Origin: Candidatus Latescibacterota bacterium
Lineage (GTDB): Bacteria; Latescibacterota; UBA2968
NCBI GenBank assembly: GCA_965116885.1
Contig: OZ220741.1
Span: 774,881 to 838,880 of the forward strand
Direction of reading: 5' to 3'
DNA: 64,000 nt
The position numbers and the translations under genes are program-made. The number at the start of each line of letters is the position of its first letter. Position 1 is the first letter of the stretch. Below are positions 850 through 61,597 of the stretch, one piece after another. A model generated the notes under the pieces. That model saw only the letters and a program-made list of their open reading frames with translations. It did not search any database and was not told where the DNA came from.

Positions 850-915
850 TCACCAATTCTCAAAAAAGAAAAGCCTCCTTGCTTCGGAGACTTTTCAAAA
901 AATAAATAAAACAGC

Positions 916-989: not shown

Positions 990-1019
990 GCATGCGTAGC
1001 CCAACCAACCCCCAGCCCC

Positions 1020-8931: not shown

Positions 8932-9043
8932 GTTTATTCTCCTCACACAAAGACACGAAGGGATAAAAAACGACCCGTTTTACCCCGCCCGCTCCGTCTA
9001 TTCATCTGCGTCTATCTGCGTCATCTGCGGATACTTCTGTTTC

Positions 9044-10432: not shown

Positions 10433-10434
10433 TG

Positions 10435-13211: not shown

Positions 13212-13221
13212 AAAAAACTCC

Positions 13222-13884: not shown

Positions 13885-13905
13885 AACAAACCTCCTTCCC
13901 TCGTC

Positions 13906-16136: not shown

Positions 16137-16138
16137 CT

Positions 16139-16552
16139 CTAACCTCTCATATCAATCCACGGTTCATCCCCCGACACATCGACCAGCACCTCACCATCGA
16201 ATTTAGCCGGAGACAAAATCGCCAAAAAAACCAGATCCTCATCCCCGGCATTATACGTCCCATGCACCATATCCATCGGAATATGCGCCGCATCCCCCGG
16301 ACCCAGAATTTGCGAAACCCTATCCACCCACTGTTCCGCCGTCCCCGAAATCACATAAATAACCTCTTCCATACACGGATGGCGATGAAACGCGTGCGCC
16401 TTGCCCGGCGGCATCGTCACCCGCACCAGCAACAAATGATCCGCCTCGGTCAACCCCTCCCGACTGATCCACTCGTGCGGCCCCCACGGCAATTCCTCCA
16501 CCTGCACATCGTCTTGCGCGATAAACCTCAACACATCAGATTTTGGCATCAC
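16139..16552 (-). CDS. Cupin domain protein
   Basis: 137 aa; HRHPCMEEVIYVISG...HIPMDMVHG two-motif cupin signature. Confidence 0.75.
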   Translation of the reverse strand: MMPKSDVLRFIAQDDVQVEELPWGPHEWISREGLTEADHLLLVRVTMPPGKAHAFHRHPCMEEVIYVISGTAEQWVDRVSQILGPGDAAHIPMDMVHGTYNAGDEDLVFLAILSPAKFDGEVLVDVSGDEPWIDMRG

Positions 16553-17941: not shown

Positions 17942-17953
17942 TTGAAAAAAATA

Positions 17954-19216
17954 TCACCGCTCCGGAACATAATCATCAATAAATTCCGGCATCATATCCA
18001 GCACCTTTTGCAAGCGTTCACGCGCCGCTTCAGAATCGGCATCGCCCAGCCCCAAAACAATATCGTGTTCTTCCAGCCGATCCGCAGGCACATCGTAAAA
18101 CCGGCCATCGTGATAAATTTTAAACCGATGTTCTCGCGCAAACTGCCCCGCGTGATCTTGACCAAAACCAAAACGCGGGTTGTAATGACAAAAAATCCAA
18201 TCCCTCGGATCGCCCCGTTCGCCCCGCAACTGGGGCAAAAAACTGCGCCCATCGCACGGCATCCCCTCCGGAATGGGCGCATCGGCCAAATCCATCAGCG
18301 TCGGCAAAAAATCGCTAAAATCCACCAGATCATCTAACACTATGCCCTCTGGCGCCACACCCTTCCAAAAAGCAATAAAAGGCACATGCGTCCCCGCATC
18401 GGGCATCGTACCCTTACCCCCCACAATCTCAACACCACCCTCAAGCTGGGACGTAATCGTGCGATGCGTACCATTATCACTCGTAAACATCACCAGTGTA
18501 TTCTCGAGCAAATCCAGCGCCTCGAGCTTCTCCACAATCCGCCCCACCAGCTTATCCGCATACGCCACCATATCGGCAAAATAGCGCGTATCCTGCTCAC
18601 CTCTCCGATCTCTATCCCGCCACTCCGGACTATCGGGCGTGGGAACAAAAGGCGCGTGAACCAGAATCATCGGATAATAAGCAAAAAAAGGCACATCCCG
18701 ATGTCGCTCAATAAAATCCAGCAAATAATCACAACAAATATCGGGACCATACCGATCTTGAATATAATCGTCGGGCAACCATTCCCCATTACATTCAATT
18801 TGCGGATTTGCATATCGTCTCTTACCCGTGCGAGTACCATCTTCTGGCGGCGGGGTCATATTCCACAAACAATGCTCGTCAAACCCAAAATGCGCGGGCA
18901 TCTTATTGTCCTTGCTCAACTGCCACTTGCCCGCAACACATGTTGCATACCCCGCATCCTGTAACAAATTGCCAAACGTCTTTTCTCTGGGATTCAAATA
19001 GGCGAACCTGTCGTAATTCCGAAAATTGTACTGCCCCGTCATAATCTCCACGCGAGAAGGCGTACACAAAGGCGTCGAATAACAATGTGAAAAGCGAATC
19101 CCCCGCGCTGCCAGATCATCCAACACTGGCGTCTCATACGTCGTACTCCCATAACAACTCAAACACTCAAATCCCATATCATCTGCCATAATCAACACAA
19201 CATTTGGTCTCGCCAT
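17954..19216 (-). CDS. Sulfatase (S1 family)
   Basis: Start MARPNVVLIMADDMGFE with GGAGGAG RBS; C-T-P-S-R-V-E-I-M-T-G. Confidence 0.9.
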   Translation of the reverse strand: MARPNVVLIMADDMGFECLSCYGSTTYETPVLDDLAARGIRFSHCYSTPLCTPSRVEIMTGQYNFRNYDRFAYLNPREKTFGNLLQDAGYATCVAGKWQLSKDNKMPAHFGFDEHCLWNMTPPPEDGTRTGKRRYANPQIECNGEWLPDDYIQDRYGPDICCDYLLDFIERHRDVPFFAYYPMILVHAPFVPTPDSPEWRDRDRRGEQDTRYFADMVAYADKLVGRIVEKLEALDLLENTLVMFTSDNGTHRTITSQLEGGVEIVGGKGTMPDAGTHVPFIAFWKGVAPEGIVLDDLVDFSDFLPTLMDLADAPIPEGMPCDGRSFLPQLRGERGDPRDWIFCHYNPRFGFGQDHAGQFAREHRFKIYHDGRFYDVPADRLEEHDIVLGLGDADSEAARERLQKVLDMMPEFIDDYVPER

Positions 19217-19373
19217 ACGCTCCTCCATTAAATAAACCCGAGCCAATTTAATACGACAACATCTCTATATCAACCCTCTTCTGGCACCACTATGAATCTG
19301 GTTGACACACCAATGCTACAGATGATACTATTATATTTCCGTGGAAACAACAGAACAAAGGGAAGGACAAAAA

Positions 19374-20222
19374 ATGAACATCTCGCTCACATCAACAGAA
19401 CGAAGCTCTGGTGAACTGGCAAAAGACAAATTGGCAAATGCGATAGAGGCAATACGGCACGACGGCTATGTCATCATCGAGCAAGTGGTAAATCACGCGA
19501 TCCTCGACGCCCTCAAAACGCGCATGGACGAAGACTCTGCAAAGCTAATTGAAGCACAAAAATGGGGTGGCGCAGGTGGCGTACAGGGTCATTTACAGCA
19601 AGGTCCGCCACCATTTGACCCATACCTATCCCCAGACATCCTTGTCAATCCCTATGCCATTCAGATCTCACGAGAAATGCTGGGCACAGGGTTTTACTGT
19701 TGCTTTTACAACGGCAACACCAATACGCCAAACAGCACCTTTCAACCCCTTCATTCTGACGGCGTTCACCTCTGGGGAGAGCAAAACCGCCCCCATCCAG
19801 CAACCCAACTCATCATCAACATCTTTCCCCAGGACACATCTGACAAAAACGGATCGACACAAATCTGGCCAGGCTCACACCTCGATATGCGCCCGGTAAC
19901 AGACGAAACAGAAGCCGATCGTCGATCCTTTTCACCCCCCATTCAGGCCACCCTCCAAAAAGGCGACATCCTGATCCGCGATTCGCGCCTCTGGCATCGC
20001 GGCGTACCAAATCCCTCCGATCACAACCGCCACATGATCGCAGTTGTGTACAACATCGGATGGCTGGTCAAACGGCGAACACTCTTCTTCGATAAAAGCA
20101 GTAAAAAAATATTCGAAGCAGGTGGCGTCGATCCCAATGCCGAATTCATCGATCCTCCGTTCGAATACCTGTTTGAAATGGCGTGCAGAAAAATAAAAAA
20201 CGATCCCATGCGCGGCGTCTAA
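19374..20222 (+). CDS. PhyH-family Fe(II)/2OG dioxygenase (only plus-strand gene of the block; lower GC)
   Basis: H-S-D (PLHSDGVHLW) and distal His (LWHRGV); start MNISL preferred over upstream ATG 19341. Confidence 0.7.
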   Translation: MNISLTSTERSSGELAKDKLANAIEAIRHDGYVIIEQVVNHAILDALKTRMDEDSAKLIEAQKWGGAGGVQGHLQQGPPPFDPYLSPDILVNPYAIQISREMLGTGFYCCFYNGNTNTPNSTFQPLHSDGVHLWGEQNRPHPATQLIINIFPQDTSDKNGSTQIWPGSHLDMRPVTDETEADRRSFSPPIQATLQKGDILIRDSRLWHRGVPNPSDHNRHMIAVVYNIGWLVKRRTLFFDKSSKKIFEAGGVDPNAEFIDPPFEYLFEMACRKIKNDPMRGV

Positions 20223-20336
20223 ACCACTTCATTCTCGCCTGGCATAACCGCCCAATCGGTACGCAGTTCCGCGACGTGTTCGCCCAGTTCGCTATCGCTG
20301 AGGGGATGGACCGGTCGCATGGGCTGATCTCCTATC

Positions 20337-21620
20337 TCACTCTGCCTGCTTTTGTTGATTTTTCAGAATCTCGTCGAGAAGCGGCAGTCCTTTGAGCCGC
20401 GCTTTCCAGTTTCGAGGCTGTTTTTCGGCAAGGCTCATAATGCCTTTATTGTATTTGAATCCCTCGCTGGTCACATTCTCAATAATCGGATGCCAACTAT
20501 CCCCAGTGCGATCTCTTACAACCCCAACTGAGGGACCTCTAACCCGTTTGATCTTCCTATCATTCTTATCAAACCGTAGCGCTTTCAGGTATTCCTCCGG
20601 AACATTCGCAAGCCCCTTGAGTGCAATGGCCGCATTTGTCCCAAATATCGCATGGATATTCTTTACCGTAGTCCCATCTGAAAACACACCGGGTTTATAA
20701 CGCTCATCCGTCTGATTCCGTTTCTCCACATAACCAGGTCCCATCGTCACGGCAAAAGCACAACTCTTCACAGTCACACCGTCGATTTTGACAACGCCGT
20801 TTTGAGCTTTGTGTGGTCCAAGCAACACCGCAGTACTGCCATTCTCACAATATAGATTCTTTGCCGTAATATCATGCACGCCGCCGTTATGCCCTCCGGC
20901 ACCCGTTTCCAGTCTAAAAGTCACCCCACCGCCAATGGCTTCGAGATTTTCAAAATGGATGGTCTCCCCCGCATGCATCTGAACCAAACCGTAACCTGGG
21001 CTGGTATTCGTGCTTCTCAGGTTTCTCACCAGACCAGCGGTTGGCCTGAAGACGCCCTCACTCTCCACATCTCTATCGCTGGACGGCGTAAAGATAAATG
21101 CAGAATAAGTGGTAAAACTATCCTTAACATCAATATCGGAGAGCAGGAAATTTTTGACCTTCCTGCAGTTGACGGTCCGTATGCCTTCCCCCGCCACACT
21201 TCCGCGATCTGAATAATCGACAATAAACTTACCGCCCAACCCGCGAATACTGACATTCTCTATGGATTCGGCATTCCTTCCCGTACCCAATCCAAAAACA
21301 ATGGTCTTCGTACCTTTGGGCCAATAGGGTTTGATAACCGTGTCTTTCTCGATCAACAGGTGTACATTGGACTTCAAATTGATGCCCCCAAAACGATAAA
21401 CCCCTTTCGGAACGATCAGGCGTCCGCCACCTTTTACAGAGACCTCATCAATCGCTTTTTGCAATCGCTCACTCTGATTGCTCTCACCCCCATCATCAAC
21501 CAGTCCGAAATCCGTCTTCAGATTCATCGTCAAACCATTTGGATCCATCGTTTCCACGTATGTCGCCTCCGCAACCGCAGTCATTACAAATAGGGTTATC
21601 ATCAACAATACGGTCTTCAT
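20337..21620 (-). CDS. Secreted right-handed parallel beta-helix protein (pectate-lyase-3 / GH28-like glycosidase fold)
   Basis: 427 aa; signal peptide MKTVLLMITLFVMTAVAEA; N-term ...DFGLVDDGGESNQSERLQKAIDEV..GGGRLIVPKGVYRF.. matches pectate_lyase_3-type beta-helix; about 47% GC. Confidence 0.6.
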   Translation of the reverse strand: MKTVLLMITLFVMTAVAEATYVETMDPNGLTMNLKTDFGLVDDGGESNQSERLQKAIDEVSVKGGGRLIVPKGVYRFGGINLKSNVHLLIEKDTVIKPYWPKGTKTIVFGLGTGRNAESIENVSIRGLGGKFIVDYSDRGSVAGEGIRTVNCRKVKNFLLSDIDVKDSFTTYSAFIFTPSSDRDVESEGVFRPTAGLVRNLRSTNTSPGYGLVQMHAGETIHFENLEAIGGGVTFRLETGAGGHNGGVHDITAKNLYCENGSTAVLLGPHKAQNGVVKIDGVTVKSCAFAVTMGPGYVEKRNQTDERYKPGVFSDGTTVKNIHAIFGTNAAIALKGLANVPEEYLKALRFDKNDRKIKRVRGPSVGVVRDRTGDSWHPIIENVTSEGFKYNKGIMSLAEKQPRNWKARLKGLPLLDEILKNQQKQAE

Positions 21621-21632
21621 GGTTGTCTCCCC

Positions 21633-23441
21633 TCACTGACGTTCAACATAAACGTAGTAAGCGCCGCAGATGGGCTGGTTGCGCTCGTCGTCGAACCAGG
21701 TGTGCAAAAGCGTGGGGCCCGGCTCCAGATCCACGGTAAACACAACACCCTGATCGTCTGGCTTAACGGGCCTGGCGTAGAATTGTCCACCGACCAGCAC
21801 ACGCGCTCTGGCAATCGGCAACGCAATACCCGCTTTCAGTTCGCCATCGGTCAATTGAGCCGCCTGGCAAGCCTCTCTCAGCTTGAGGCCGCTCTCTCTC
21901 GGCCAGCGCCGCAGTTCAAAAGTGTACGTGCCAGCGGCCTCGACCATCAGGTGCCAGTAACTGTTCTTCCGCACGGCCGTCCTCACCTGCCGCTGCTGAT
22001 CCACAAAGACATCTCGCCACTCGCAGGCCGACAGCGTCATCGGATTCTCGGCTTCACTGCCGATGGTAATCCGCTGCACTTGATTGGCGACCGGTTCCAC
22101 TTCTTGCCACCAGGCATTTAGATAATCCCGCATCTGCCGGACAATGTCAGGATGCTGATCGGCAACATCGAGATTCTGTTCGGGATCGCTATCCAGATCA
22201 TACAGTGCCGTTCCTTCAAGCAAGCGCCACCGTTTCCAGAGCACAGCAGCCCCCTCGCGTCTTATGAACGAAGGGCTGTCGGGCGTCGGGTAGTCCAGCT
22301 GCCCGGGCATACGGCTGTAATTCACCGTCAACATGCGATCTTCCGGCACCTGCTCCGCACCCCGCAAAGCCGGAGATAGGCTAATCCCGTCCAAACGCAA
22401 TTCGGCTGGCGATTCCAGCCCACAAAACTCGATCAAAGTCGGCAAAATATCCTGCACCTGAGTCAGTCCCTCAATCTCCCGGGGTTCGCCCAGACCACCA
22501 TTTGGCCAATGCAAGAAAAACGGTACCCGATGCCCACCTTCCCAGAGCTCGCACTTTTTACCCCGCATCCCGGCATTGTAATAGACAGAACCAAAAGTAC
22601 TGCCATTATCAGTCATAAAAATCAGGATGGTATCCCTATCTACGCCCTGTTCTTGCAGAAAGCGCCGAAGCGCACCGACCTGAGTATCCAGATTTCGAAT
22701 CATAGCGAGAAAGCGAATGATATTTTCTCGCAAATTTTCGGGAAGTGCAGGCAACTGGTGTTCATCCTCTGCAAATGCCGCCTCAATGGCCTCGCGGTCT
22801 TCGGCAGGCACAAAAAGTGGGGCGTGCGGGGCATTGGTCGGCAGGAAAGTGAAAAAGGGTTCTGAAGCCGCGATCCGTGCTTGCATCCACGCTTTTGCCG
22901 CGTTGAAAAAGACCTCGGTACAGTACCCATCCTGTCGCACGCGAGAGCCATTGTGACAGTATATATCATCGAAATAATCGTTCTCCCAGTAGTCGGGCAC
23001 CGAACTGATATGAGAGGATGGAAACCAGAGACTTTCCTCAAAACCGCGGTCTTGAGGACGGTACGGATAGTTGTCGCCCAGATGCCATTTGCCAAACACA
23101 CCCGTTCGGTAACCGTTCGACCGGAAAATATCGGCCATGGTCGGCAAATCTGGGCGCAAAAGCGAGCGTCCGCTGCTCACGTTCACAGCGCCATTGCGTG
23201 CCGCATCAAGTCCGCTCAGCAATTGACCGCGAGTAGGCGTACACATGGGCGCGACGTGAAAATCCATCAGCCGAATACTTTCCCCGTGCAAGCTGTCCAG
23301 ATTCGGCGTCCGGGCAACGGGATTGCCGTGACAGCCCAGATCGCCATACCCCTGGTCGTCGGTAATGATCAAAATCACATTGGGGCGAGAAGGGTGCAGG
23401 CTCGATGATTCGCGTTCTTTCAAAACAGTTTTACCTTTCAA
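21633..23441 (-). CDS. Sulfatase (S1 family) with C-terminal extension domain
   Basis: 602 aa; NVILIITDDQGYGDLGCHGN and C-T-P-T-R-G-Q-L-L-S-G. Confidence 0.9.
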   Translation of the reverse strand: MKGKTVLKERESSSLHPSRPNVILIITDDQGYGDLGCHGNPVARTPNLDSLHGESIRLMDFHVAPMCTPTRGQLLSGLDAARNGAVNVSSGRSLLRPDLPTMADIFRSNGYRTGVFGKWHLGDNYPYRPQDRGFEESLWFPSSHISSVPDYWENDYFDDIYCHNGSRVRQDGYCTEVFFNAAKAWMQARIAASEPFFTFLPTNAPHAPLFVPAEDREAIEAAFAEDEHQLPALPENLRENIIRFLAMIRNLDTQVGALRRFLQEQGVDRDTILIFMTDNGSTFGSVYYNAGMRGKKCELWEGGHRVPFFLHWPNGGLGEPREIEGLTQVQDILPTLIEFCGLESPAELRLDGISLSPALRGAEQVPEDRMLTVNYSRMPGQLDYPTPDSPSFIRREGAAVLWKRWRLLEGTALYDLDSDPEQNLDVADQHPDIVRQMRDYLNAWWQEVEPVANQVQRITIGSEAENPMTLSACEWRDVFVDQQRQVRTAVRKNSYWHLMVEAAGTYTFELRRWPRESGLKLREACQAAQLTDGELKAGIALPIARARVLVGGQFYARPVKPDDQGVVFTVDLEPGPTLLHTWFDDERNQPICGAYYVYVERQ

Positions 23442-23490
23442 TGAACAATTATCAGGTCTTTTTCAGATCTTCCCTGGCCAGATCATCCAT

Positions 23491-24879
23491 TTAATAAATC
23501 AGCCGGCCTTTGCGTAGCGCAGGCTCATTGTAGCGCTCCATCTGGGCAATCAGCTCAGCTTTAAACTTCTCGGCAATCTCTTTGTATTCGGGATCGGAAT
23601 ATACGTTGACCAGCTCATCCGGGTCCTTATGCAGATCGTACAACCAGGGATCATCAACCTGTGAGAGAACCAGTTTATAACGTCGGTTAACGGCCATAAC
23701 GGTCTGCGATCCTGAAGTAGTCATATAGACAATGCGATCATCATCTACCACCTTTTCATCACCGAGAAACGCCGCAGCATCATTTAACCCATGGGCATCT
23801 GGAATCTCCTCCTCAATCCCCATAATACCCAGAATCGTCGGACCGAAATCAACCGTCGTATAGGCGGTATTCACAACTTTCCCCGGCGCGATCTTCTCCG
23901 GCCAGCGAATCACAAACGGAATCTTTGCACTGCCCTCGTAGGGCATCCCCTTGTTGTGGCGTCTATGTTCGCCCATCAGGTCGCCGTGATCGGCAGTAAA
24001 AATTACGATCGTATTCTGATCCAACCCCCCGGCTTCCAGATCTGCCAGAATGCGCCCCACATTATCGTCGATGCATTTGACCATCCCAAAATACCTCTGC
24101 ATCTGCCTCTGATTCAGCTCATGGGCCGTATTCCTGTCTCCAAACCGGTGCCATTTCGGCATTTTCTCCACAGGAAAATCCATCGTGCGCGGATTTTGAA
24201 AAACCATGTCTTTGTACATCGTATCGTAGGGCGCGCGAACCGTATTTGGCCCGTGCGGATCCGGGATAGAAACCATAATGCAAAAGGGTTGATTCTGATC
24301 GCGCTCGATAATTTCCAGGGTGCGGATAGTCAACCAATCAGTTGTAAACGATTTTTCGTCGGCATCATCTACTCTGCTGGCAGGTCCACCCCTGTTGTTC
24401 CTCGCCGCAACATAGGGCGTGCCATCATCTTTCAACCCAAGTTTCTTCCAGTGACCGCGGTTCCACATATACCGATTGTCTTCAAAACCGAATTTGTGCT
24501 CTGGCGCAAAACCGGGCTTGGCTTCTCCACCCAGATGCCACTTGCCGAGATATGAGGTGGCATAACCCTGATTCTTGAGCACCTCGGCAAACGTGATCAG
24601 CCCCTCTTTCAGGGGAATGTCGTTTTTATAAACATCGGTAGCAATCGGATAAAGACCGGAAACAAAAGAAGCACGCGAAGGCGAACAAACAGGCGACGAC
24701 GAATAATAACTGTCGCAAATAGCACCGTCCCGCGCGAGCGAATCAATATGCGGCGTATCTACTTTAACGCCTGGTCCCCAGACAAAAGCCTGATCCTCCG
24801 TCATCAAATCGCGATAACAACCCAATGTGCGAAAATTGTGTTCATCGGTATGAATAATCAGCAGATTCGGTTTACTCAT
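23491..24879 (-). CDS. Sulfatase (S1 family)
   Basis: 462 aa; NLLIIHTDEH and C-S-P-S-R-A-S-F-V-S-G. Confidence 0.9.
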   Translation of the reverse strand: MSKPNLLIIHTDEHNFRTLGCYRDLMTEDQAFVWGPGVKVDTPHIDSLARDGAICDSYYSSSPVCSPSRASFVSGLYPIATDVYKNDIPLKEGLITFAEVLKNQGYATSYLGKWHLGGEAKPGFAPEHKFGFEDNRYMWNRGHWKKLGLKDDGTPYVAARNNRGGPASRVDDADEKSFTTDWLTIRTLEIIERDQNQPFCIMVSIPDPHGPNTVRAPYDTMYKDMVFQNPRTMDFPVEKMPKWHRFGDRNTAHELNQRQMQRYFGMVKCIDDNVGRILADLEAGGLDQNTIVIFTADHGDLMGEHRRHNKGMPYEGSAKIPFVIRWPEKIAPGKVVNTAYTTVDFGPTILGIMGIEEEIPDAHGLNDAAAFLGDEKVVDDDRIVYMTTSGSQTVMAVNRRYKLVLSQVDDPWLYDLHKDPDELVNVYSDPEYKEIAEKFKAELIAQMERYNEPALRKGRLIY

Positions 24880-34331: not shown

Positions 34332-34739
34332 ATGCGATTGCAAATGCCCGGCAAACGCCGCCCGGCCATCAATGTGACCTCTTTGATCGACGTCCTGTTT
34401 TTATTGCTTACATTTTTTCTCGTAACCACGCAATTTGTCGATCAATCCGCGCTCAAAGTCGAACTGCCCGCCATGGCACACGCGGAAAAAACGCAGCACG
34501 CGAGGCGTTATATTCTCAACATATCGGCAGATGGTCAAATGGCATTGGATGGTCAGATCGTCGATCAAACGACATTGCGGGAATTATTAAAACAACACGC
34601 AGCGGCCATAGATGAAAGTGGGGGCCTGATTTTGCGGGCAGACCGCCAATTGCCTTATGGCGATGTGATGTCGATTCTGGACCTCGTCAGAGGTGTGGGA
34701 ATCAGACGGATTACCAATGCCACAGCGGAACCCGAATAG
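34332..34739 (+). CDS. exbD: ExbD/TolR biopolymer transport protein
   Basis: 135 aa; INVTSLIDVLFLLLTFFLVTTQF single TM; stop TAG lies inside the GACGAATA repeat. Confidence 0.8.
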   Translation: MRLQMPGKRRPAINVTSLIDVLFLLLTFFLVTTQFVDQSALKVELPAMAHAEKTQHARRYILNISADGQMALDGQIVDQTTLRELLKQHAAAIDESGGLILRADRQLPYGDVMSILDLVRGVGIRRITNATAEPE

Positions 34740-34850
34740 ACGAATAGACGGTGCGGGGTACAACTGGTCGTTTCCCAGACCAGTTCATAGACGAATAGAC
34801 GAACCCTGCCCTACCAGCCAACCGCTATCGTTGATTCGTTGATTCGTTGC
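34733..34850. repeat. Composite repeat element: (GACGAATA)n octamers flanking hairpin GGTACAACTGGTC-N9-GACCAGTTCATAG, then GAACCCTGCCCTACCAGCCAAC and inverted GATTCGTT copies
   Basis: About 85% identical to element at 53474-53650. Confidence 0.8.
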
Positions 34851-36416: not shown

Positions 36417-38072
36417 ATGATAAAAAAAATAGCTACTTGCCGATGGTTCATGCTGCTTTTTCTCGCGCTCTTTGCCTGTGGCGAAGAAGAAGCACAACAG
36501 GCAGAGGGACAAGGCGGACGTGCTGGACGCGGCGGACGTGCTGGACGCGGTGGTGGCGCTGCTGCGCCCGTCAAGGTCGAGACTGTACAGCGAGGAGACA
36601 TTTCTGCATATATTCTCAAAAATACGACACTCGAAGCCGAAAGATGGGTTGACGTTCGAGCGCGCAGAGCTGGGCAGGTCATCGCATTACTAAAAGAAGA
36701 AGGCGACCCCGTACGTGCGGGTACCATCCTGGCACGACTCGACGCCGACGCTGCTCAAATCAGCGTCTCGCAGCGAGAAATTTCGTATCGCGAAGCCAAA
36801 CAGCGGTATGAACGCGAAGATGCCTTATTTCAGCGCAATCTGGGTAGCAAACAGTCTTATGAAAATGCCAAGACCCAATTCGAATCGTCCAAAGCACAAC
36901 TCGAACAGGCCAAACTCGATTTGAGTTACACGGCAATTAGAGCACCCATTGAAGGCATTATGACGCTGAGAAATATTGAGGTCGGCAACATGGTCACCAA
37001 CAATCAGGTGGTCGCCTCTGTAGCCAAATTCGATCCCCTGCTTGCACGCATCCAGGTAACCGAAAAGGACTTTGGCAAAATCACCGTAGGGCAGACCGCG
37101 CGCATTACGGTTGAAGCCGCACCTGAAAGAGAATTTACGGGCACAGTCAAAATGATCAGCCCGGTGGTAGATCCCGAAAGCGGCACGGTTAAAGTAACCG
37201 TTGAGATACCTCGAACAGATGCAAGTCTGCTGCGCCCGGGAATGTTTGCCTCGGTTTATATTATCACGGAAACGCGAAGAAACACCCTGGTTATTCCCAA
37301 AAAAGCCCTCGTACTCGAAGGAGAAGGCAACCAGGTATTCACCTTTGAAACCGATCCCGAAAGCGGGCGCGGTCAGGCACAACGCAGGCGCATTGAAATC
37401 GGCTTTACAGACAGTGACCGTTTAGAGATTCTCACAGGTCTTTCCCAAGGAGAGCAAGTCATTACCGTAGGACAGGAAGGATTGCGGCCCGGTTCTTCCG
37501 TACGCCTCGTAGGCGAGGCAGCACCTCCCGCATTTGCCGGACGCGGTGGACAGGGACGCGCTGGACGTGGACAGATGGGACAAAGTGGACAGGGACGCGC
37601 TGGACGCGGACAGATGGGACAAGGTGGGCAGGGTAGGCAGGGGCGTGGACAGATGGGACAGGGCGAAGGACGCGCTGGACGCGGACAGATGGGACAAGGC
37701 GGGCAGGGTAGGCAGGGGCGCGGACAGATGGGGCAAGGCGGACAACGAGGTGGTGATGGACAGGGACGCGCTGGACGTGGGCAGATGGGGCAAGGTGGAC
37801 AACGAGGTGGTGATGGACAGGGACGCGCTGGACGCGGGCAGATGGGGCAAGGCGGACAACGAGGTGGCGGTTTTGCCGGTGGACAAGGCGGCGGTGATCC
37901 CACAGACCGCATAAAACGCATGATTGAGCGCTTCCCCGAAGTCAAAGCCGAATACGAAAAGCGCGTGAAAGACGACCCCGAACTCGCAACAAATATGGAA
38001 AAACTCCGCGCTTTTATAGCTGAGATGCAAGAAAAAGGATTGATACCAGCACGAGGCAGACGAGGTAATTAA
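36417..38072 (+). CDS. RND efflux membrane fusion protein (HlyD/AcrA family) lipoprotein with N-terminal GRAGRGG and about 110-aa C-terminal Gly/Gln/Arg/Met repeat extension
   Basis: Lipobox LALFAC; biotinyl-lipoyl/beta-barrel MFP core; repeats GRAGRGQMGQGGQ. Confidence 0.8.
   Translation: MIKKIATCRWFMLLFLALFACGEEEAQQAEGQGGRAGRGGRAGRGGGAAAPVKVETVQRGDISAYILKNTTLEAERWVDVRARRAGQVIALLKEEGDPVRAGTILARLDADAAQISVSQREISYREAKQRYEREDALFQRNLGSKQSYENAKTQFESSKAQLEQAKLDLSYTAIRAPIEGIMTLRNIEVGNMVTNNQVVASVAKFDPLLARIQVTEKDFGKITVGQTARITVEAAPEREFTGTVKMISPVVDPESGTVKVTVEIPRTDASLLRPGMFASVYIITETRRNTLVIPKKALVLEGEGNQVFTFETDPESGRGQAQRRRIEIGFTDSDRLEILTGLSQGEQVITVGQEGLRPGSSVRLVGEAAPPAFAGRGGQGRAGRGQMGQSGQGRAGRGQMGQGGQGRQGRGQMGQGEGRAGRGQMGQGGQGRQGRGQMGQGGQRGGDGQGRAGRGQMGQGGQRGGDGQGRAGRGQMGQGGQRGGGFAGGQGGGDPTDRIKRMIERFPEVKAEYEKRVKDDPELATNMEKLRAFIAEMQEKGLIPARGRRGN
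37541..37870. repeat. Imperfect tandem DNA repeats (about 39-66 bp units) encoding GQGRAGRGQMGQGGQ(RGGD) in the MFP gene
   Basis: GGACAGGGACGCGCTGGACG(T/C)GG(A/G)CAGATGGG(A/G)CAAGG(T/C)GG repeated 7 or more times. Confidence 0.85.
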
Positions 38073-41353: not shown

Positions 41354-42175
41354 ATGGAGCAGAGCCGAAATGAAGCGTTTGTCGAATCGCTTCAGAACTA
41401 TTCGCTTTCAGAACTCGAAGATATTTATGCACATCTGGACCGAGACCTGTTTCCAGAGCGATTCGATCAAGTCAGGGACGAAATTGAAGCGCGCTTAAAG
41501 GACTTTGATTCAAAAGCTACAGGCATAAGTACACTAACTGGATCACCCGGATTTTTGAGACGCATCGCATCGAGCGCGATTGATTTCTCCATGCAAGTGC
41601 TCGTTCCCTTTTTGATTTTTTTTCTTCTCAAAAGCGTTCTTTTTCCAAGTGCCCCAACCGCAAGTGGCGGGGGTGGACGCGGCGGACGAGGTGGCGGGGG
41701 ACGCGGCGGACGAGGTGGGGGCGGTGGCGGCAATCAATCCGATGACCTCTGGTCAGACATCACGGGTTTTGTGGGCAGTGCAAAGGACATCGCTGTTGGA
41801 TTGGTCGAAGGGGATCCCGCAGCACAGAGCAGGGCGATGCTTATCTGGAACGATTTTGGTATCATCCTGGTCATTCTACTCGTTTTCCGGGTCTTCATGA
41901 CCTTATCGGGGTGGGCGCGTTCTGGATTTACCCCTGGAATGCGCGAATTGGGCATTCGGGTCGAGCGCGTTGGAGGCGGTGTTCCAACCTGGTCACAAGC
42001 GGTGGGCAGATTTGTTCTACAGCCTCTAATTTTTATCGCGACACTGGGGCTCAGTGGTCTGTGGATGCTATGGGATCGCGACAGTCGGGCACTTCACGAT
42101 AAAATTCTCGGCACAAGGCTCGTTCGCGTGGTGCGCACCTGGGAAAAAACTGGATCCGAGAGAAGATTTGAATAG
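41354..42175 (+). CDS. RDD family membrane protein with internal GGGRGGRGGGGRGGRGGGGGG tract
   Basis: C-term LWDRDSRALHDKILGTRLVR (R..D..D); start 2 nt after RND stop. Confidence 0.6.
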   Translation: MEQSRNEAFVESLQNYSLSELEDIYAHLDRDLFPERFDQVRDEIEARLKDFDSKATGISTLTGSPGFLRRIASSAIDFSMQVLVPFLIFFLLKSVLFPSAPTASGGGGRGGRGGGGRGGRGGGGGGNQSDDLWSDITGFVGSAKDIAVGLVEGDPAAQSRAMLIWNDFGIILVILLVFRVFMTLSGWARSGFTPGMRELGIRVERVGGGVPTWSQAVGRFVLQPLIFIATLGLSGLWMLWDRDSRALHDKILGTRLVRVVRTWEKTGSERRFE

Positions 42176-42702: not shown

Positions 42703-45700
42703 ATGGGCCATGAGGAGATTATTATGAATCACTGGTGGACGCGCCGACTACAAGTCGGCCTTTTGGGGATTGCGATAATTTTAATTGCTATGTGGGGATG
42801 CGGACGCGAGCGCGTAAATCCAATTGACGCACAATATGAGGGTGAGGGAAGCGTAACTCTGAATGCGCCGGGCAATATTCGCGCCCAGGGCGGTATTGGA
42901 CGGATCACTTTGAACTGGAATCCGGTAAACAGCACCAGCCTTGCGGGATACGGCATATCGCGGTCAACATCGGCTACGGGAGACTACGTGCTGTTACGCG
43001 GCGAATCATCTGTCCCCGGCGCGACGACAGCACGGACGACATTTGTGGATTCAACAATAGATGTTAGTGTATCGAAAATATACTTTTACAAACTCAGCAG
43101 CGTAGATGTAGATGGACAAGCGAGCGAGTTGTCTGCATTTGTAAGCGCAGAAGTCCTCGATGATACGCGCGCACCAGCTATGCCGACAAATCTCGTCGCT
43201 ATCACCGATGCCGATGGCAAACAGGTGACACTGGGCTGGTCAGCACCAGAAACGGATGAGGGCAATCAGGAATTGACCGGCTTGTCCGGGTACAGAATTT
43301 TCAGGATCAAAGATTCGCAGGGCAAACTCCAGATACAGGGATCACAAACAGCTCTGGTTCAACTCGCAACAGAACTGGGCATTGACCTCGATAATCTGGG
43401 AGCAATATCCGACGACTTGAAGGATATTTTCGTCGAACTTGGGACAGTGCCAGCCGGCCAGACTTATTTCCTCGATACCGATGGACTCGAAGCTGGTGTG
43501 CTTCACGTTTATGTGGTCATCGCTGTTGATCCAGATGGCAACACCGGGCCTCCAGCACTTGCTTTAGTGACCATAAGCGCACCGGGCGCGAACGTACCAG
43601 TGCCTGCTGGCTTGCGCGCGACGAAAAATGAACAGGCGCGCATTGTCATCTCCTGGAATCCCGTGAACGATCCCAATTTGCTGGGCTATCTGGTCTTGCG
43701 GTCACAATCGACACAAGGTCCCTTCACATCCGTAACAAGTGATACGCTCTTTACCACGGGACAGACGACCTATGTCGATTCGCTCGTCACCACCGATCAA
43801 GTGTACTACTACAAAGTTCAAACCGTTGTGCAAGATCCTCAGCTTGGGCTATTGCGCAGTGATACTTCCACTTTCATTGACGGACAGGCACTTGCCGACC
43901 AGAGTGCTCCTGGCGCGCCCTCAGATCTCATCGTCAGCCTGGACGATGAGAATTTCCAGCGGGTGATGCTGAACTGGACTGCACCTGTAACAGACAGAAA
44001 TGGCAATGAACTGACCGGACTGGCCTCTTTTGAAATCTACCGGTCGCGCGAGAACAATACATCCTTTGCACTGATCGCCACAGTATCGAGCGATCAGGTG
44101 AGTTTTGTGGATACTTCTGTCGAATTGCTCACCACGTATTTCTATGCAATCAGAGCATTGGATCAAGCCGGCAATGCCGGACCCCGGTCTCAGCCGATAT
44201 CTGTGACCACCAGGGGATTTGCCATCCCGCGCAACGTGCGGGCAACTTCTGGTGTGCAGAAAATCACCTTGACCTGGACGGCAAACACCGAGCCTGAATT
44301 AACGGGATATGAAATCTTGCGCTTTACAGATCCCACGCACGAAACCCCCGACAAAACCTTCTCTTCTGTACTGACGACGTATGTGGATACCCCTGTCACA
44401 GCAGATCAACCCTTTGTCTATCGGGTGCGGGCGGTTGGCACCGCCAATGTAAAGAGCGAATTGTCACCCCCCGTCTCTGCACAGGCCACGGAAGCTGCTC
44501 CGGTTCTGGCAGCACCGCGCAATGTGCAGGCAAGGGGTGGGATTGGTCACATTACCATCACCTGGGCGGCAAACACAGAAGCAGAACTGATCGGATATCG
44601 CGTGATGCGCTATACAGACCCGGCACAAACCGAGGCTGAAGCGACCTTTATGACCGTGCAAACGACTTATGTCGATTCACCACTGGTATCGGAACAGACC
44701 TATGTGTATCGCGTACAGGCGCTTGGTACCAACAACGAAGAAAGCGAACGGTCACTATATGCCTCTGCAACGGTCTCAGCCGATCAGAGTCCTCCTGGCG
44801 CGCCTTCGGATCTCATCGTCAGTCTGGACGAGGCGAATTTCCAGCGCGTGACGCTCAGCTGGACGGCTCCCACGAGAGACAGCAATGGCAATGAATTGAC
44901 CGGATTGACCTCCTTTGAAATCTACCGGTCACGCGACAATAATACATCCTTTGCGCTAATCGCCACAGTATCGAGCGATCAGGTGAGTTATGAAGACACA
45001 TCTGTCGAGTTGTTGACGCGATACTTTTATGCGGTCAGAGCATTGGATCAGGCCGACAATGCCGGACCCCGGTCTCAGTCGGTATCTGTGACGACCAAAG
45101 GATTTGCTGCACCGCGCAACTTGCAGGCGACTGCTGGTGTGCAGCAAATCACCTTGACCTGGGCGGCAAATACCGAGCCGGAATTGACGGGATATGAAAT
45201 CTTGCGCTTTACAGATCCCACACAAGCAACACCTGAGCGAATCTTCTCTTCTGTGTTGACGACGTATGTGGACACCCCTGTCACAGCAGATCACCCCTAT
45301 GTGTATCGCGTGCGTGCGATTGGTCCTTCCAATGTGAAGAGCGAACTATCGGCTCCCGTTTTTGCACAGGCCACTGCGCCAGTTTTGGCAGCCCCGCGCA
45401 ATGTGCGCGCGACTGCTGGAATTGAGTACATTACCATCACCTGGTCTGCCAATACAGAAGCAGAACTGACCGGGTATCGCGTGATGCGCTATACAGACCC
45501 GGCACAAACCGAAGCCGAAGCGACCTTCACAATCGTGCATACGACTTATGTCGATTCGCCGCTGGTAGCAGGACAGACCTATGTCTATCGCGTACAGGCG
45601 GTAGGTGTAAACAATACAGAAAGCGAACTCTCGCTATTTGCCTCTGCAACGGTACTGATCGATGATAGCCCACCTGCTACTCCTGGCAATTTTGCCGCCG

Positions 45701-52110: not shown

Positions 52111-52218
52111 AAGATGAAGATACGACAGGGGGGTGGGAAAATCAATATATTGACTTTCGGGTGTGTATCCTTGCATTTTACAGCGTGCGTGTGTATCTTT
52201 GCCCGCGCACAATAAAAC

Positions 52219-52244
52219 GGGACGGCACAGGGGCCGTCCCCTAC
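52219..52244. repeat. REP-like palindrome GGGACGGCACAGGGGCCGTCCCCTAC preceded by AATAAAAC
   Basis: Identical to copies at 61455 and 61536; reverse complement of copy at 964. Confidence 0.8.
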
Positions 52245-52285: not shown

Positions 52286-53482
52286 ATGTTTGAATCCCTG
52301 ACAATGGCCCCTGCGGATCCCATTATAGGATTGACCGAAGCATTCAAAAACGATCCAAACCCCAACAAAATAAACCTCGGCGTTGGCGTGTACAAAGACG
52401 GCGACGGCAACACACCAATATTTGTCTCTGTAAAAACAGCAGAAGAACGCCTACTCGCACATGAAGACACCAAAAATTATCTCGGCATAGAAGGCGACGA
52501 AGCGTATAACAAAGCCGTCCAGGAACTCCTCTGGGGAACAGAACACGAAATCCTCACCAGTGGACGCGCGGGAACAGCCCAGGCACCGGGCGGCACGGGC
52601 GCGTTGCGCATTGCCGGTGACTTTATTCATCAGCACTATCCCCATGCCCGCGTATGGCTGAGCGATCCCACCTGGGCAAACCACCCCAAAATTTTTGAAT
52701 CTGCCAGCGTACCCACAGCGACCTACCGCTATTACAACCCCGCGTCTTTCGGCCTGGACTTTGATGCACTCATCCAGGACCTCGAACAAATCCCCGCTGG
52801 CGATGTCGTATTACTACACGGATGTTGCCACAACCCCACCGGCGTCGATCCCTCCGCCGAGCAATGGGCACAAATAGCCGATATCATCGCAGATCGCGGC
52901 ATCATCCCACTCGTTGACTTTGCCTATCAGGGCCTGGGCAATGGCCTTGCTGAAGACGCAGTCGGACTCCTATCTCTCAGCCGACCCGGCAGCGAACTCC
53001 TCGTCGCCAGTTCCTTCTCCAAAAACTTTGGCCTCTACCGCGAACGCACAGGCGCATTGACCCTCGTGGGAAAAAACGCCGCCACCGTTGAAAAAGCGAT
53101 GAGCCACATCAAAATCTGCATCCGCACAAATTATTCCAACCCGCCATCGCACGGCGCACAGGCAGTCGCAACAGTCCTCAACGACACCGACCTGCGAGCA
53201 CAATGGGACGGCGAAGTAAAAGCCATGCGCGACCGCATCAACACCATGCGCACCCTATTTGTGGATACCCTCGAAACAAAAGGCGTGCGGCGCGACTTTT
53301 CGTTTATCGCACACCAGAGGGGAATGTTCTCATTCTCCGGGTTGACCCCCGAGCAAGTAGATGCATTGCGCGAGCGATATTCGATATACATCGTCAGTTC
53401 GGGACGCATCAACGTGGCGGGCATGACAAAGGACAATATTGGGCCATTGTGTGAGGCGATCGCGGAAGTGATAGACGAATAG
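52286..53482 (+). CDS. aspC: Aspartate/aromatic-amino-acid aminotransferase (class I, AspC/TyrB family)
   Basis: 399 aa from MFESLTMAPADPIIGLTEAFKNDPNPNKINLGVGVY; SFSKNFGLYRER PLP-lysine motif. Confidence 0.85.
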   Translation: MFESLTMAPADPIIGLTEAFKNDPNPNKINLGVGVYKDGDGNTPIFVSVKTAEERLLAHEDTKNYLGIEGDEAYNKAVQELLWGTEHEILTSGRAGTAQAPGGTGALRIAGDFIHQHYPHARVWLSDPTWANHPKIFESASVPTATYRYYNPASFGLDFDALIQDLEQIPAGDVVLLHGCCHNPTGVDPSAEQWAQIADIIADRGIIPLVDFAYQGLGNGLAEDAVGLLSLSRPGSELLVASSFSKNFGLYRERTGALTLVGKNAATVEKAMSHIKICIRTNYSNPPSHGAQAVATVLNDTDLRAQWDGEVKAMRDRINTMRTLFVDTLETKGVRRDFSFIAHQRGMFSFSGLTPEQVDALRERYSIYIVSSGRINVAGMTKDNIGPLCEAIAEVIDE

Positions 53483-53765
53483 ACGAATAGACGAATAGAC
53501 GGAGCGGTGTACAACTGGCCGCCTCTCAGGCCAGTTCATAGACGAATAGACGAATAGACGAATAGACGAATAGACGAATAGACGAATAGACGAATAGACG
53601 AATAGACGAATAGACGAATAGACGAACCCCGCCCAACCACCCAACGGGCGGGCACAGGGGCACCGCCCCTACATTGATGAACTGTACCGAACCAGTTGTA
53701 CCCCGTTCCGTAGATTCGCTGATGAACTGCTGGCGCAGTTGTACCCCGTTCCGCTGATTCGCCTT
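53474..53765. repeat. Composite repeat: (GACGAATA)x3, hairpin GTACAACTGGCC-N9-GGCCAGTTCATAG, (GACGAATA)x10, GAACCCCGCCCAACCACCCAAC, a REP-like palindrome (53646-53672), then two inverted degenerate copies of the hairpin unit
   Basis: Octamer units start at 53541 every 8 nt to 53620; first units overlap aspC stop codon. Confidence 0.85.
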
Positions 53766-53779
53766 TCCAGGGAGACATC

Positions 53780-61493: not shown

Positions 61494-61561
61494 TTTTTGT
61501 AGGGGCGACCCCCCTGTGGTCGCCCGCTGACTGCTGGGACGGCACAGGGGCCGTCCCCTAC
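61455..61561. repeat. Cluster of three REP-like palindromes (61455-61480, 61499-61525, 61536-61561) in alternating orientation
   Basis: Same 26-nt family as at 916-989 and 52219-52244. Confidence 0.85.
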
Positions 61562-61597
61562 GGCTAATTATCGCGACTTTATTTATTGGGAGGAAAC

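What the first reader, a model, noticed from the sequence alone, without database searches (positions are those of the whole stretch)
34733..34850. Novel composite repeat (octamer VNTR plus hairpin) supplying the exbD stop codon
An (GACGAATA)n array flanks a conserved hairpin (GTACAACTGG...CCAGTTCATAG) and a conserved tail (GAACCCyGCCCwACCAsCCAAC). A second, longer copy lies at 53474-53765. In both places the host gene's stop codon, TAG, is part of the first octamer unit. The element has therefore inserted or expanded exactly at gene 3' ends and defines the C-terminus (…EPE* here, …VIDE* in aspC). It looks like a MITE or REP-type mobile or recombinogenic element with a phase-variable octamer tract.
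Basis: seen in the sequence. Interest (0 to 1): 0.6.

Follow-up and report, generated by a model that had tools for sequence, protein, structure and literature searches.

The report
Nested hairpin-and-octamer repeat between genes
The finding is real: it is a previously undescribed family of small, strain-variable repeats (a roughly 35-base hairpin nested in 8-base tandem arrays) that fills the gaps between genes in Latescibacterota bacteria, and it overlaps stop codons without really reshaping the proteins.

Summary

**What it is.** The unit is a REP-like hairpin, GGARCGGK-GTAC-AACTG…CAGTT-CAT. It sits inside arrays of CGAATAGA. A C-rich tail follows, then reversed CGAATCAA-type arrays. The whole element folds as a long imperfect palindrome.

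**How widespread.**
- It was found essentially nowhere else.

**Evidence that it moves and recombines.**
- The hairpin is a discrete 28–37-nt insertion. Copies of an unrelated 250-nt MITE exist with and without it.
- Contigs ≥98.8% identical to the window show four structural alleles at the exbD site. One allele is empty, and octamer counts differ between the others.
- Three relatives have only 9–12 nt between aspC and the next gene.
- One exbD allele carries a ~105-nt segment ~95% identical to the window's aspC element.

**Relation to stop codons.** 27 of 42 oriented elements start at or within 12 nt of a stop codon, against 5% for random intergenic positions. The protein effect is negligible:
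- ExbD ends at the same codon without the element.
- AspC gains one residue.

**Not supported.** Phase variation is not supported, because the arrays carry stops in all three frames. No transposase was found, so the mobilising enzyme is only inferred.

The parts
34332..34739 (+). exbD gene. Its stop codon TAG (34737-34739) lies in the first octamer.
   Evidence: ORF. Pfam PF02472 ExbD on the identical protein. The empty allele has TAA at the same codon.
34733..34749 (+). A-type octamer array (CGAATAGA x2), left arm of element 1.
   Evidence: TRF 34733-34750, 2.2 copies, 100% match. Sequence.
34750..34788 (+). Hairpin core with its 5' tail: GGTGCGGG-GTAC-AACTGGTC-GTTTCCCA-GACCAGTT-CAT.
   Evidence: Pattern match 34758-34788. 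Conserved 5' tail GGARCGGK. Stem covariation.
34787..34803 (+). A-type octamer array (2.1 copies) 3' of the core.
   Evidence: This array has 3.6 copies in L003-L005.
34804..34823 (+). C-rich tail module (CCCTGCCCTACCAGCCAACC).
   Evidence: Module T recurs in many composites, in either orientation.
34828..34849 (+). B-type octamers in reverse orientation (TCGTTGAT x2.8, the reverse complement of CGAATCAA), right arm of element 1. The arm ends 13 nt before the ATG of the ECF sigma-factor gene (34863).
   Evidence: This array has 4 copies (b'4) in L006. Neighbouring gene Pfam hits.
52286..53482 (+). aspC-type aminotransferase gene. Its last codons, ATA GAC GAA TAG, lie in the octamer array.
   Evidence: Homologues are mostly 396-398 aa and the closest end ...AIAEVLxD. 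Pfam PF00155.
53471..53500 (+). A-type octamer array (3.9 copies), left arm of element 2.
53501..53539 (+). Hairpin core with its 5' tail: GGAGCGGT-GTAC-AACTGGCC-GCCTCTCA-GGCCAGTT-CAT.
   Evidence: The stem shows a compensatory change relative to locus 1 (TC/GA becomes CC/GG).
53538..53626 (+). A-type octamer array, 11.1 perfect copies.
53627..53645 (+). C-rich tail module (CCCCGCCCAACCACCCAAC).
53646..53672 (+). A copy of a second, canonical GTAG-type REP hairpin (GGGCGGGCACAGGGGCACCGCCCCTAC), embedded in the element.
   Evidence: Inverted-repeat family I1-I4 and I13. Other copies.
53677..53718 (-). Reverse-oriented hairpin core. On the minus strand it reads CGAATCTACGGAACGGG-GTACAACTGGTTCGGTACAGTTCAT.
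   Evidence: I7, I9.
53722..53761 (-). Second reverse-oriented hairpin core, short-loop class. On the minus strand it reads CGAATCAGCGGAACGGG-GTACAACTGCGCCAGCAGTTCAT. The element ends about 18 nt before the ATG of the short-chain dehydrogenase gene (53780).
   Evidence: (I5). Neighbouring gene Pfam hits.

Best explanation
**What it is.** Two copies of a lineage-specific, nested, non-autonomous repeat of the REP/BIME kind.

- **Layer 1, the core.** A 28-37-nt mini-element, 5'-(A)GCGGK-GTAC-AACTG-loop-CAGTT-C(A)-3'. It has a conserved single-stranded 5' tail, a conserved stem base, and a variable distal stem and loop. It inserts as a discrete unit next to GGA/AT-type sites inside other repeats.
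- **Layer 2, the host element.** A 100-290-nt element whose two arms are tandem octamers. CGAATAGA lies on the side of the upstream gene. Reversed CGAATCAA-type octamers lie on the other side. Between them is a C-rich tail, sometimes with other small hairpins. The arms pair into a long imperfect palindrome.

**How it behaves.**
- The host element sits in very short spacers between a stop codon and the next ribosome-binding site, or between two convergent stop codons.
- Its octamer number most likely changes by replication slippage.
- Its modules are most likely exchanged between copies by ectopic recombination.

**Why it overlaps stop codons.** I take this to be a by-product. The only tolerated insertion points in such spacers abut the stop. 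The junctions show 5-6 nt of pre-existing octamer-like sequence (CGAATA in exbD, ATAGA in aspC). The array provides TAG in every frame, so a gene clipped in its last codons still terminates at once.

**Shown versus inferred.**
- Shown: the anatomy, dispersal, nesting, polymorphism, exchange between loci and position statistics.
- Inferred: that the core is moved as a single-stranded DNA hairpin by a HUH/Y1 (RAYT- or IS200/IS605-like) enzyme encoded elsewhere. I put this at about 35-40%.
- Inferred: that the element is mainly selfish rather than regulatory.
For: **Dispersal**
One further hit, in a Gemmatimonadota MAG, looks like chance (28-nt spacer).
- JGI metagenomes gave 31 stretches. Eighteen are from one metagenome; most of the rest, largely soil contigs with long spacers and no family context, look like chance.
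- There are none in viral contigs.

**Structure**
- The 5' tail GGARCGGK is conserved outside the searched pattern.
- The stem is 98.6% paired. One pair covaries: C:G 37, T:A 15, T:G 2 among 54 distinct sequences, with 0/500 shuffles reaching the observed score.
- Short-loop copies have C-GNNA-G or C-GTA-G loops.

**The core is a discrete insert**
- Copies of a 250-nt TIR-bearing MITE exist with and without it and have identical flanks. For example, L037 4304 against 4475 reads GCGAAGG[AGCGGGGTAC...CAGTTC]ATCTCATACC.
- The core occurs in at least six different flank contexts and as head-to-tail arrays (L145).

**Host architecture**
- About 50 elements follow the scheme a(n)[H a(n)](T|t)[K|R][h]b'(n).
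- The elements fold better than shuffles as DNA: z = -3.3 and -5.6.

**Position**
- 27/42 left ends lie within -30 to +12 nt of a same-strand stop codon, against 101/2196 random non-ORF positions.
- Right ends are typically 11-26 nt from the next start codon, or abut a convergent stop.

**Polymorphism**
- Contigs 98.8-99.9% identical in the flanks show four alleles at the exbD site, one of them empty.
- Two alleles (L006, L007) come from one sample.
- Octamer counts differ between orthologous copies: 1.6 vs 3.6, 2.8 vs 4.8, 2 vs 3, and 2 vs 4.
- The aspC spacer is 9 nt in L121 and L122 and 12 nt in L155. In L123 and L156 it is filled with other modules.

**Exchange between loci**
- About 105 nt of L006's exbD allele is ~95% identical to window 53615-53720.
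Against: **No enzyme identified**
- No HUH...YxxNP-type ORF occurs in about 1 Mb of element-bearing loci plus the window.
- No ORF flanked by cores looks like a transposase.
- No transposase family recurs among 145 neighbouring ORFs. That tool lists only the 25 commonest families, so a single transposase could have been missed.

**Departures from the RAYT model**
- The tetranucleotide next to the stem is GTAC, not the GTAG/GTGG of RAYT-associated REPs.
- Core strand shows no association with local GC skew (p = 0.47). A strong lagging-strand bias, as seen for IS200/IS605, is therefore not evident, although the proxy is crude.

**Not simple insertions**
- The two filled/empty comparisons of the host element are not clean insertions. 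Twenty native bases at exbD and 4 at aspC are missing from the filled alleles.

**A function is not excluded**
- The consistent polarity (A-arm towards the upstream gene), the stops in all frames, and the preference for intercistronic spacers could reflect a selected function rather than survivorship.
Confidence: 0.6

Rival explanations
1. A selected intercistronic regulatory element. The hairpins and the long palindrome act in the mRNA. They could protect the upstream cistron from 3' exonucleases, uncouple translation of neighbouring genes, or stop read-through ribosomes with all-frame stops. Dispersal would then be secondary.
For: - The element is polar with respect to transcription: the A-arm lies at the upstream stop in 27/42 cases and the right end lies just before the next RBS.
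- On the coding strand both arm types carry stops in all frames: TAG in CGAATAGA and TGA in TTGATTCG (read directly from the sequence).
- The hairpin stem is kept by compensatory change.
- REP elements are known to stabilise upstream mRNA (established knowledge, not tested here).
Against: - The element is present or absent, and shuffled in module content, among strains ≥98.8% identical in the flanks, with housekeeping genes on both sides.
- Cores occur in both orientations relative to genes (33 vs 28) and in divergent regions.
- The core also sits inside an unrelated MITE.
- There is no terminator consensus and no Rfam match even at E ≤ 1.
Confidence: 0.2
2. A phase-variable contingency locus. 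Changes in octamer number would switch expression or the reading frame of exbD/aspC or of the downstream genes.
For: - Copy number does vary between strains.
- The period of 8 is not a multiple of 3.
Against: - The gene's own stop is the first TAG of the array, and every frame meets a TAG within 8 codons. Copy number therefore cannot alter the upstream protein.
- The arrays lie upstream of the RBS of the next gene, not between promoter hexamers, and no promoter consensus is present.
- The genes concerned are ordinary metabolic or transport genes.
Confidence: 0.05
3. A conventional MITE. The whole composite would be cut and pasted by a DDE transposase that recognises the octamer arms as terminal inverted repeats.
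For: - The arms are imperfect inverted repeats (CGAATAGA... / ...TTGATTCG) and the element folds as a long hairpin.
- Element size is 100-290 nt.
Against: - There is no target-site duplication in either filled/empty comparison.
- Arm length is variable, and arms are often present on one side only.
- No related full-length IS was seen in the loci.
Confidence: 0.1
4. An assembly or sequencing artefact of a low-complexity region.
For: Tandem octamers are hard to assemble from short reads.
Against: - The same architecture appears in many independent assemblies, including complete long MAG chromosomes, with arrays of up to 14 copies.
- Alleles are reproduced in separate samples: L001/L002, L003-L005 and L008/L009.
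Confidence: 0.02

Closest known systems
REP / BIME elements and REPINs with their RAYT (Y1 HUH) transposases (enterobacteria, Pseudomonas; Bertels & Rainey 2011, PMC3116915)
   Same: - A short imperfect palindrome with a conserved unpaired 5' motif next to the stem.
- Extragenic, with many copies per genome.
- Clustered in alternating orientation with specific linker modules, so that inverted pairs fold into a larger hairpin.
- Located within or at the end of operons rather than in promoters.
- Strain-variable.
   Different: - The motif is GTAC with a GGARCGGK tail, not GTAG/GTGG.
- The hairpins are embedded in variable-number octamer arrays, which REP/BIME elements lack.
- No RAYT gene was found next to any copy in the roughly 1 Mb sampled.
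- The genome has a separate, canonical GTAG-type REP family, one copy of which lies inside locus 2.
Small dispersed repeats (SDR) of heterocyst-forming cyanobacteria (Elhai et al. 2008, Genome Res 18:1484; cited in PMC4390886 for the precise insertion of SDR5 inside HIP1)
   Same: - Mobile-looking units only tens of bases long, with no coding capacity.
- They insert precisely into other repeats and are therefore found nested.
- From my recollection of that paper, which the library does not hold, some SDRs lie within short tandem heptamer repeats.
   Different: - A different phylum, and no sequence relationship was tested.
- The unit here is 28-37 nt with a clear hairpin and a conserved 5' tail.
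- The host arrays are octamers that form the two arms of a palindromic element.
Mycobacterial interspersed repetitive units (MIRU-VNTR) (from memory)
   Same: Variable-number tandem repeats in intercistronic spacers of operons, overlapping the stop codon of the upstream gene. They are useful as strain markers.
   Different: MIRU units are 46-101 bp and have no nested hairpin or inverted arms. From memory, they also carry small ORFs in phase with the flanking genes. Here the units are 8 bp with stops in all frames.
MITEs (for example Correia/NEMIS, ERIC, RUP) (from memory)
   Same: Non-coding elements of 100-300 nt with inverted ends, intergenic and strain-variable.
   Different: There is no target-site duplication and no related autonomous IS. 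The ends are tandem arrays of variable length.

Membership tests
REP/BIME-REPIN (RAYT-associated) | Short (20-40 nt) imperfect palindrome, repetitive and extragenic. | tested here: met
   Over 125 copies in 16 genomes. All but about 21 lie outside long ORFs, and those 21 mostly sit at over-extended ORF edges. The stem is 98.6% paired.
REP/BIME-REPIN (RAYT-associated) | Conserved GTAG/GTGG tetranucleotide 5' of the stem. | tested here: not met
   The tetranucleotide is GTAC in all copies, preceded by GGARCGGK. It holds the analogous position but has a different sequence.
REP/BIME-REPIN (RAYT-associated) | Organisation in clusters of alternating orientation with recurrent linkers, or inverted doublets forming a larger hairpin. 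| tested here: met
   The architecture is a(n)[H]..T/K/R..[h]b'(n). Whole-element DNA folds give z = -3.3 and -5.6.
REP/BIME-REPIN (RAYT-associated) | A cognate RAYT (PF01797-type Y1 transposase) gene flanked by the same REPs in the genome. | tested here: inconclusive
   None was found by motif search in about 1 Mb of loci plus the window, among core-flanked ORFs, or among 145 neighbours scanned with Pfam.
MITE (DDE-transposed) | Terminal inverted repeats plus a target-site duplication of fixed length. | tested here: not met
   The arms are only loosely inverted and vary in length. Neither the exbD nor the aspC filled/empty comparison shows a duplication; native bases are missing instead.
Phase-variable simple-sequence contingency locus | The repeat tract lies inside a reading frame or between promoter elements, so that copy number switches expression. 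| tested here: not met
   The tract begins at the stop codon and has a stop in every frame. No promoter consensus is present.
Intrinsic transcription terminator | A G+C-rich hairpin followed by a T-run. | tested here: not met
   No terminator-like sites on either strand at either locus. The hairpin is followed by CAT plus octamers.
Any curated RNA family (Rfam 15) | A match to a covariance model. | tested here: not met
   No hits at gathering score in the whole window. None at E ≤ 1 in either locus.
Cyanobacterial SDR elements | Sequence identity to SDR1-8 consensus sequences. | not testable with these tools
   The defining paper is not held in the library. Only the behaviour (precise nesting in other repeats) could be compared.

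The most novel reading that the evidence does not exclude
The 28-37-nt GTAC hairpin could be a new class of ultra-small mobile DNA with its own site preference (GGA/AT within GAAT-type octamers) and a mobilising enzyme unrelated to RAYTs. The octamer arrays would be produced by, or maintained for, its insertion cycle. Together they would make a mobile 'all-frame stop cassette' that is preferentially integrated at octamer-like sequences overlapping stop codons. It would thereby remodel operon junctions in uncultured Latescibacterota, which are probably sponge symbionts.
Probability: 0.15. Interest if true: 0.75.

Novelty: new variant of a known kind. Interest (0 to 1): 0.5.

Why it matters
- It adds a well-documented case of nested, tens-of-bases-long mobile DNA in an uncultured phylum. 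The only comparable case I know of is in cyanobacteria. Here there are clean filled/empty pairs that define the insert to within one base.
- In practice, the elements make variable-number markers for typing strains of Latescibacterota (probably sponge symbionts) directly from metagenomes.
- They explain contig breaks.
- They explain spurious ORFs. The reverse strand of the arrays is open and reads SIRLFVYSSIRLFVY.
- They shift annotated gene ends by a residue or two.
- If the polarity towards stop codons proves to be a targeting property, or a function in operon expression, it would be of wider interest.

Tried and rejected
- **Searching for a transposase.** I tried a HUH...YxxNP motif search over all six frames of about 1 Mb. 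I looked for ORFs bracketed by cores (which returned only housekeeping genes). I ran a Pfam scan of 145 neighbouring ORFs (which found ordinary metabolic families). Nothing was found, so the enzyme remains inferred.
- **Strand bias against local GC skew, as a proxy for replication direction.** No association (p = 0.47). The proxy is noisy, so this is inconclusive.
- **Looking up the window's own AspC (two possible starts) and the downstream dehydrogenase.** No record holds exactly these proteins. I used homologues instead.
- **Rfam, terminator and promoter scans.** All negative.
- **Literature search for the sequences and for repeats in Latescibacteria.** Nothing relevant. The Elhai 2008 paper could not be read.
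- **Fixing the insertion point of the core to a single base across contexts.** The L037 MITE pair gives a clean insertion with a 1-nt ambiguity. Other comparisons need an extra G or the loss of an A, so the exact cut sites stay open.
- **Rejected outright.** CRISPR-like array, integron attC site and intrinsic terminator. The first two I considered from the sequence alone and did not pursue; the terminator scan was negative.

Full report
**Observation.**
- Perfect 8-nt arrays lie at 34733-34750, 34787-34803, 53471-53501 and 53538-53626, the last with 11.1 copies. A reversed variant octamer (TCGTTGAT) lies at 34828-34849.
- The hairpin pattern GTACAACTG-N-CAGTTCAT occurs four times in the window, against none expected from shuffles. 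The two extra copies are in reverse orientation at 53677-53701 and 53722-53744.
- exbD (34332-34739) and the aspC-type gene (to 53482) each end at a TAG inside the first octamer.
- The identical ExbD protein carries Pfam PF02472. Its neighbours are ExbB, a TonB-like protein and an ECF sigma/anti-sigma pair. The aspC neighbour is a short-chain dehydrogenase.

**Anatomy.**
- The four hairpins share more than the stem. Each reads CGAAT-nnn-CGG-nn-CGG-n-GTAC-AACTG-loop-CAGTT-CAT.
- The octamer CGAATAGA equals the sequence on either side of the hairpin, so the hairpin sits in register inside the array.
- After the second array comes a C-rich tail.
- In locus 2 there follow a copy of a different, canonical GTAG-type REP (53646-53672) and two reversed hairpins with CGAATCTA and CGAATCAG flanks.
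- In locus 1 the right arm is a reversed CGAATCAA array without a hairpin.
- Each element therefore has a left arm and a reversed, related right arm. As single-stranded DNA it folds into a long imperfect hairpin: z = -3.3 for locus 1 and -5.6 for locus 2.

**Family and host range.**
All but one are in 16 Latescibacterota MAGs, with 25 stretches in one 6.5-Mb chromosome. The exception is a Gemmatimonadota contig with a 28-nt spacer inside coding-like sequence, probably a chance match.
- JGI metagenomes gave 31 stretches. Eighteen come from a single metagenome; most of the rest, largely soil contigs with long spacers and no family context, look like chance.
- Viral contigs gave none.
- AspC's closest named relatives are Latescibacterota. 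Contigs carrying the identical ExbD have record names that look like sponge-metagenome labels. I infer, but did not verify, that the window comes from a sponge-associated Latescibacterota.
- I found no paper containing these sequences or describing such repeats in this phylum.

**The hairpin core.**
- Outside the searched pattern, the 5' flank is conserved as GGA(G/A)CGG(G/T).
- In 54 distinct long-class copies the 8-bp stem is 98.6% paired. One pair covaries: C:G 37, T:A 15, T:G 2, with 0/500 shuffles reaching the observed covariation.
- There is a caveat. The five basal pairs were fixed by the search pattern, so only the inner pairs are informative.
- Short-class copies close with C-GNNA-G or C-GTA-G loops.

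**The core is a separate insert.**
- It occurs in at least six unrelated flank contexts:
  - CGAATAGA arrays.
  - CGAATCAA/CTA/CAG arrays.
  - GAATTAAG-type arrays.
  - A CGCAGATGAA-repeat context.
  - A CAGGATGA-repeat context.
  - The centre of a ~250-nt MITE with terminal inverted repeats.
- Copies of that MITE exist with and without the core and have otherwise identical flanks. In L037 two neighbouring copies read GCGAAGG[AGCGGGGTACAACTGCGTAGCAGTTC]ATCTCATACC and GCGAAGGATCTCATACC.
- The core is therefore a discrete 28-37-nt insertion with no inverted ends and at most one duplicated base.
- It can also form head-to-tail arrays (L145).

**The host element and its position.**
- About 50 elements oriented on the CGAATAGA array follow one scheme. 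A-octamers (1-14 copies) are optionally interrupted by a forward core. Then comes the C-rich tail in either orientation, optionally followed by a TTGCGGC...GCCGCAA hairpin or a GTAG REP. An optional reversed core and reversed B-octamers complete the element.
- In 942 kb of loci there are 23 A-type arrays of at least 2.5 copies (maximum 14.1) and 9 B-type arrays (maximum 7.6).
- The left end lies within -30 to +12 nt of the stop codon of a long same-strand ORF in 27 of 42 elements. Eleven of these have the stop inside the array. The figure for random non-ORF positions is 101 of 2196.
- The right end is usually 11-26 nt from the next start codon, leaving only the ribosome-binding site, or it abuts a convergent stop.
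- Cores themselves show no strand preference relative to genes (33 vs 28 in tandem contexts). They also occur in 12 divergent regions.

**Polymorphism at the exbD site.** Ten contigs encode the identical ExbD and are 98.8-99.9% identical to the window in the flanks. Nine of them span the exbD-sigma spacer (L010 ends before it). With the window they show four structures there:
- An empty allele with 30 nt between the genes (GAA TAA ATAGCGGTTTCTGTCTCAG AGGTAGGAACA ATG), seen in two runs.
- The window type.
- A type with an inverted tail and either 1.6 or 3.6 octamers after the core.
- A type lacking the forward core but carrying tail, GTAG REP, a reversed core and 4.8 reversed octamers.

The last type (L006) and a window-like allele (L007) come from one sample. 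About 105 nt of L006's allele is ~95% identical to window 53615-53720, the aspC element 19 kb away. This points to ectopic exchange between copies.

**Polymorphism at the aspC site.**
- L121 and L122 (94-95% protein identity) have a 9-nt spacer, and L155 (81%) has 12 nt. These spacers contain little more than the RBS (for example GAT TAA GGAGACATC ATG).
- Two others, L123 and L156, have a different set of modules inserted directly after the TAA.

**Effect on the proteins.**
- Without the element, ExbD stops at the same codon, TAA instead of TAG.
- AspC homologues are mostly 396-398 aa, and the closest ones end ...AIAEVLxD. The closest empty allele ends ...EVID* and the window ends ...EVIDE*.
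- The element therefore physically supplies the stop but changes nothing in ExbD and adds one residue to AspC.
- Elsewhere the all-frame stops matter a little more. Two apparently orthologous genes (L055, L077), read by eye in the long open frame reported, would run into the array in different frames and end ...WLRE* and ...WLTRIDE*.
- In both window loci the native sequence at the junction already matched the octamer in register: CGAATA in exbD and ATAGA in aspC. This suggests integration or expansion guided by short homology or by a site preference. Two cases are too few to generalise.

**Mechanism.**
- The features of the core are these: an asymmetric hairpin with a conserved unpaired 5' tail; no inverted ends; essentially no target duplication; insertion next to a short motif; and nesting in palindromic hosts. 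They are those of substrates of single-strand-specific HUH/Y1 enzymes (IS200/IS605 TnpA and the RAYTs that go with REP/REPIN elements; PMC3116915).
- That is my preferred mechanism, but it is an inference. No such gene was found near any copy in about 1 Mb. The motif is GTAC, not GTAG. No strand bias relative to GC skew was detected.
- Array length most likely changes by slippage, and modules move between copies by recombination. The exchange between loci supports the latter directly.
- The tie to stop codons is best explained by three things together: very short native spacers in which only the stop-RBS junction tolerates an insert, octamer-like microhomology that includes TAA/TAG, and stops in every frame.
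- A selected role in the mRNA cannot be excluded. The consistent polarity favours it. The within-species presence/absence, the shuffling of modules and the lack of any terminator, promoter or Rfam signal argue against it.
- Phase variation is not supported.

**Comparison and novelty.**
- The element works like REP/BIME/REPIN repeats and meets their structural and positional criteria. It fails the GTAG criterion, and the RAYT criterion could not be settled.
- Its nesting behaviour most resembles the cyanobacterial small dispersed repeats (Elhai 2008, as cited in PMC4390886).
- Its VNTR-at-operon-junction behaviour resembles mycobacterial MIRUs.
- The combination appears undescribed: a mobile hairpin of about 35 nt inside variable octamer arms that abut stop codons, confined to one uncultured lineage.
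- I rate it a new variant of a known kind, of moderate interest.

**Limits.**
- Gene calls in the loci are simple ORF calls.
- The enzyme, the exact cut sites and any RNA-level role remain untested.

Noticed in passing
window 912-990, 52218-52244, 61455-61563 (and 53646-53672 inside locus 2): A second, canonical REP family with a GTAG motif (GGGACGGCACAGGGGCCGTCCCCTAC and GGGCGACCACAGGGGGTCGCCCCTAC). The copies form BIME-like clusters of alternating orientation in intergenic regions. One copy lies just upstream of aspC.
   Followed up: partly
window 8985-9030 (minus strand): Three CGCAGATGA-type 9/10-mers are followed by GAATAGACGGAGCGGG, the 5' flank of the core, but the GTAC hairpin is absent. 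This looks like a degenerate or related element between two minus-strand genes.
   Followed up: partly
L017, L019, L023, L028, L033, L035, L037, L049, L057, L062, L086 and others: A ~250-nt MITE in related genomes. It has terminal inverted repeats (TTAGAGACTGTTTTAAAAC ... GTTTTAAAACAGCTTCTAA) and an internal TGTCATTCTGAGCG/CGCTCAGCATGACA palindrome. Copies occur with or without the nested core.
   Followed up: partly
L027, L055, L061, L085, L091, L123, L156 and others: Another recurrent small hairpin module, (A)CCTCTGGAT(T/C)GCGGC-N-GCCGC(A/G)ATGACGGC. It occurs inside the composites and, together with CGCAGATGAA repeats, fills the aspC-SDR spacer in two relatives.
   Followed up: no
L145 (MKWU01054821.1) 1-300: A head-to-tail array of at least six cores with a 35-37-nt period and alternating loop types. 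It is attached to a GTAG REP, a tail and A-octamers.
   Followed up: no
window 53330-53841 (minus strand): The reverse strand of the octamer array has no stop codons. This produces spurious ORFs of about 100 aa reading ...SIRLFVYSSIRLFVY..., which could be mis-annotated as genes.
   Followed up: yes
window 36513-36561, 37545-37867, 41675-41731: In-frame tandem repeats encode Gly/Arg/Gln-rich low-complexity stretches (GRAGRGQMGQGGQ...). They occur at both ends of a 551-aa protein (36417-38072), and again near 41.7 kb.
   Followed up: no
window ~9100-24600 and 43000-45700: Many diverged direct repeats of 40-300 nt recur at kilobase spacing (families D2-D5, D7, D10, D13-D19). They look like a cluster of paralogous genes and a protein with ~290/880-nt internal repeats.
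   Followed up: no
window 6971-7248: A 141-nt unit repeated twice in tandem at 92% identity.
   Followed up: no
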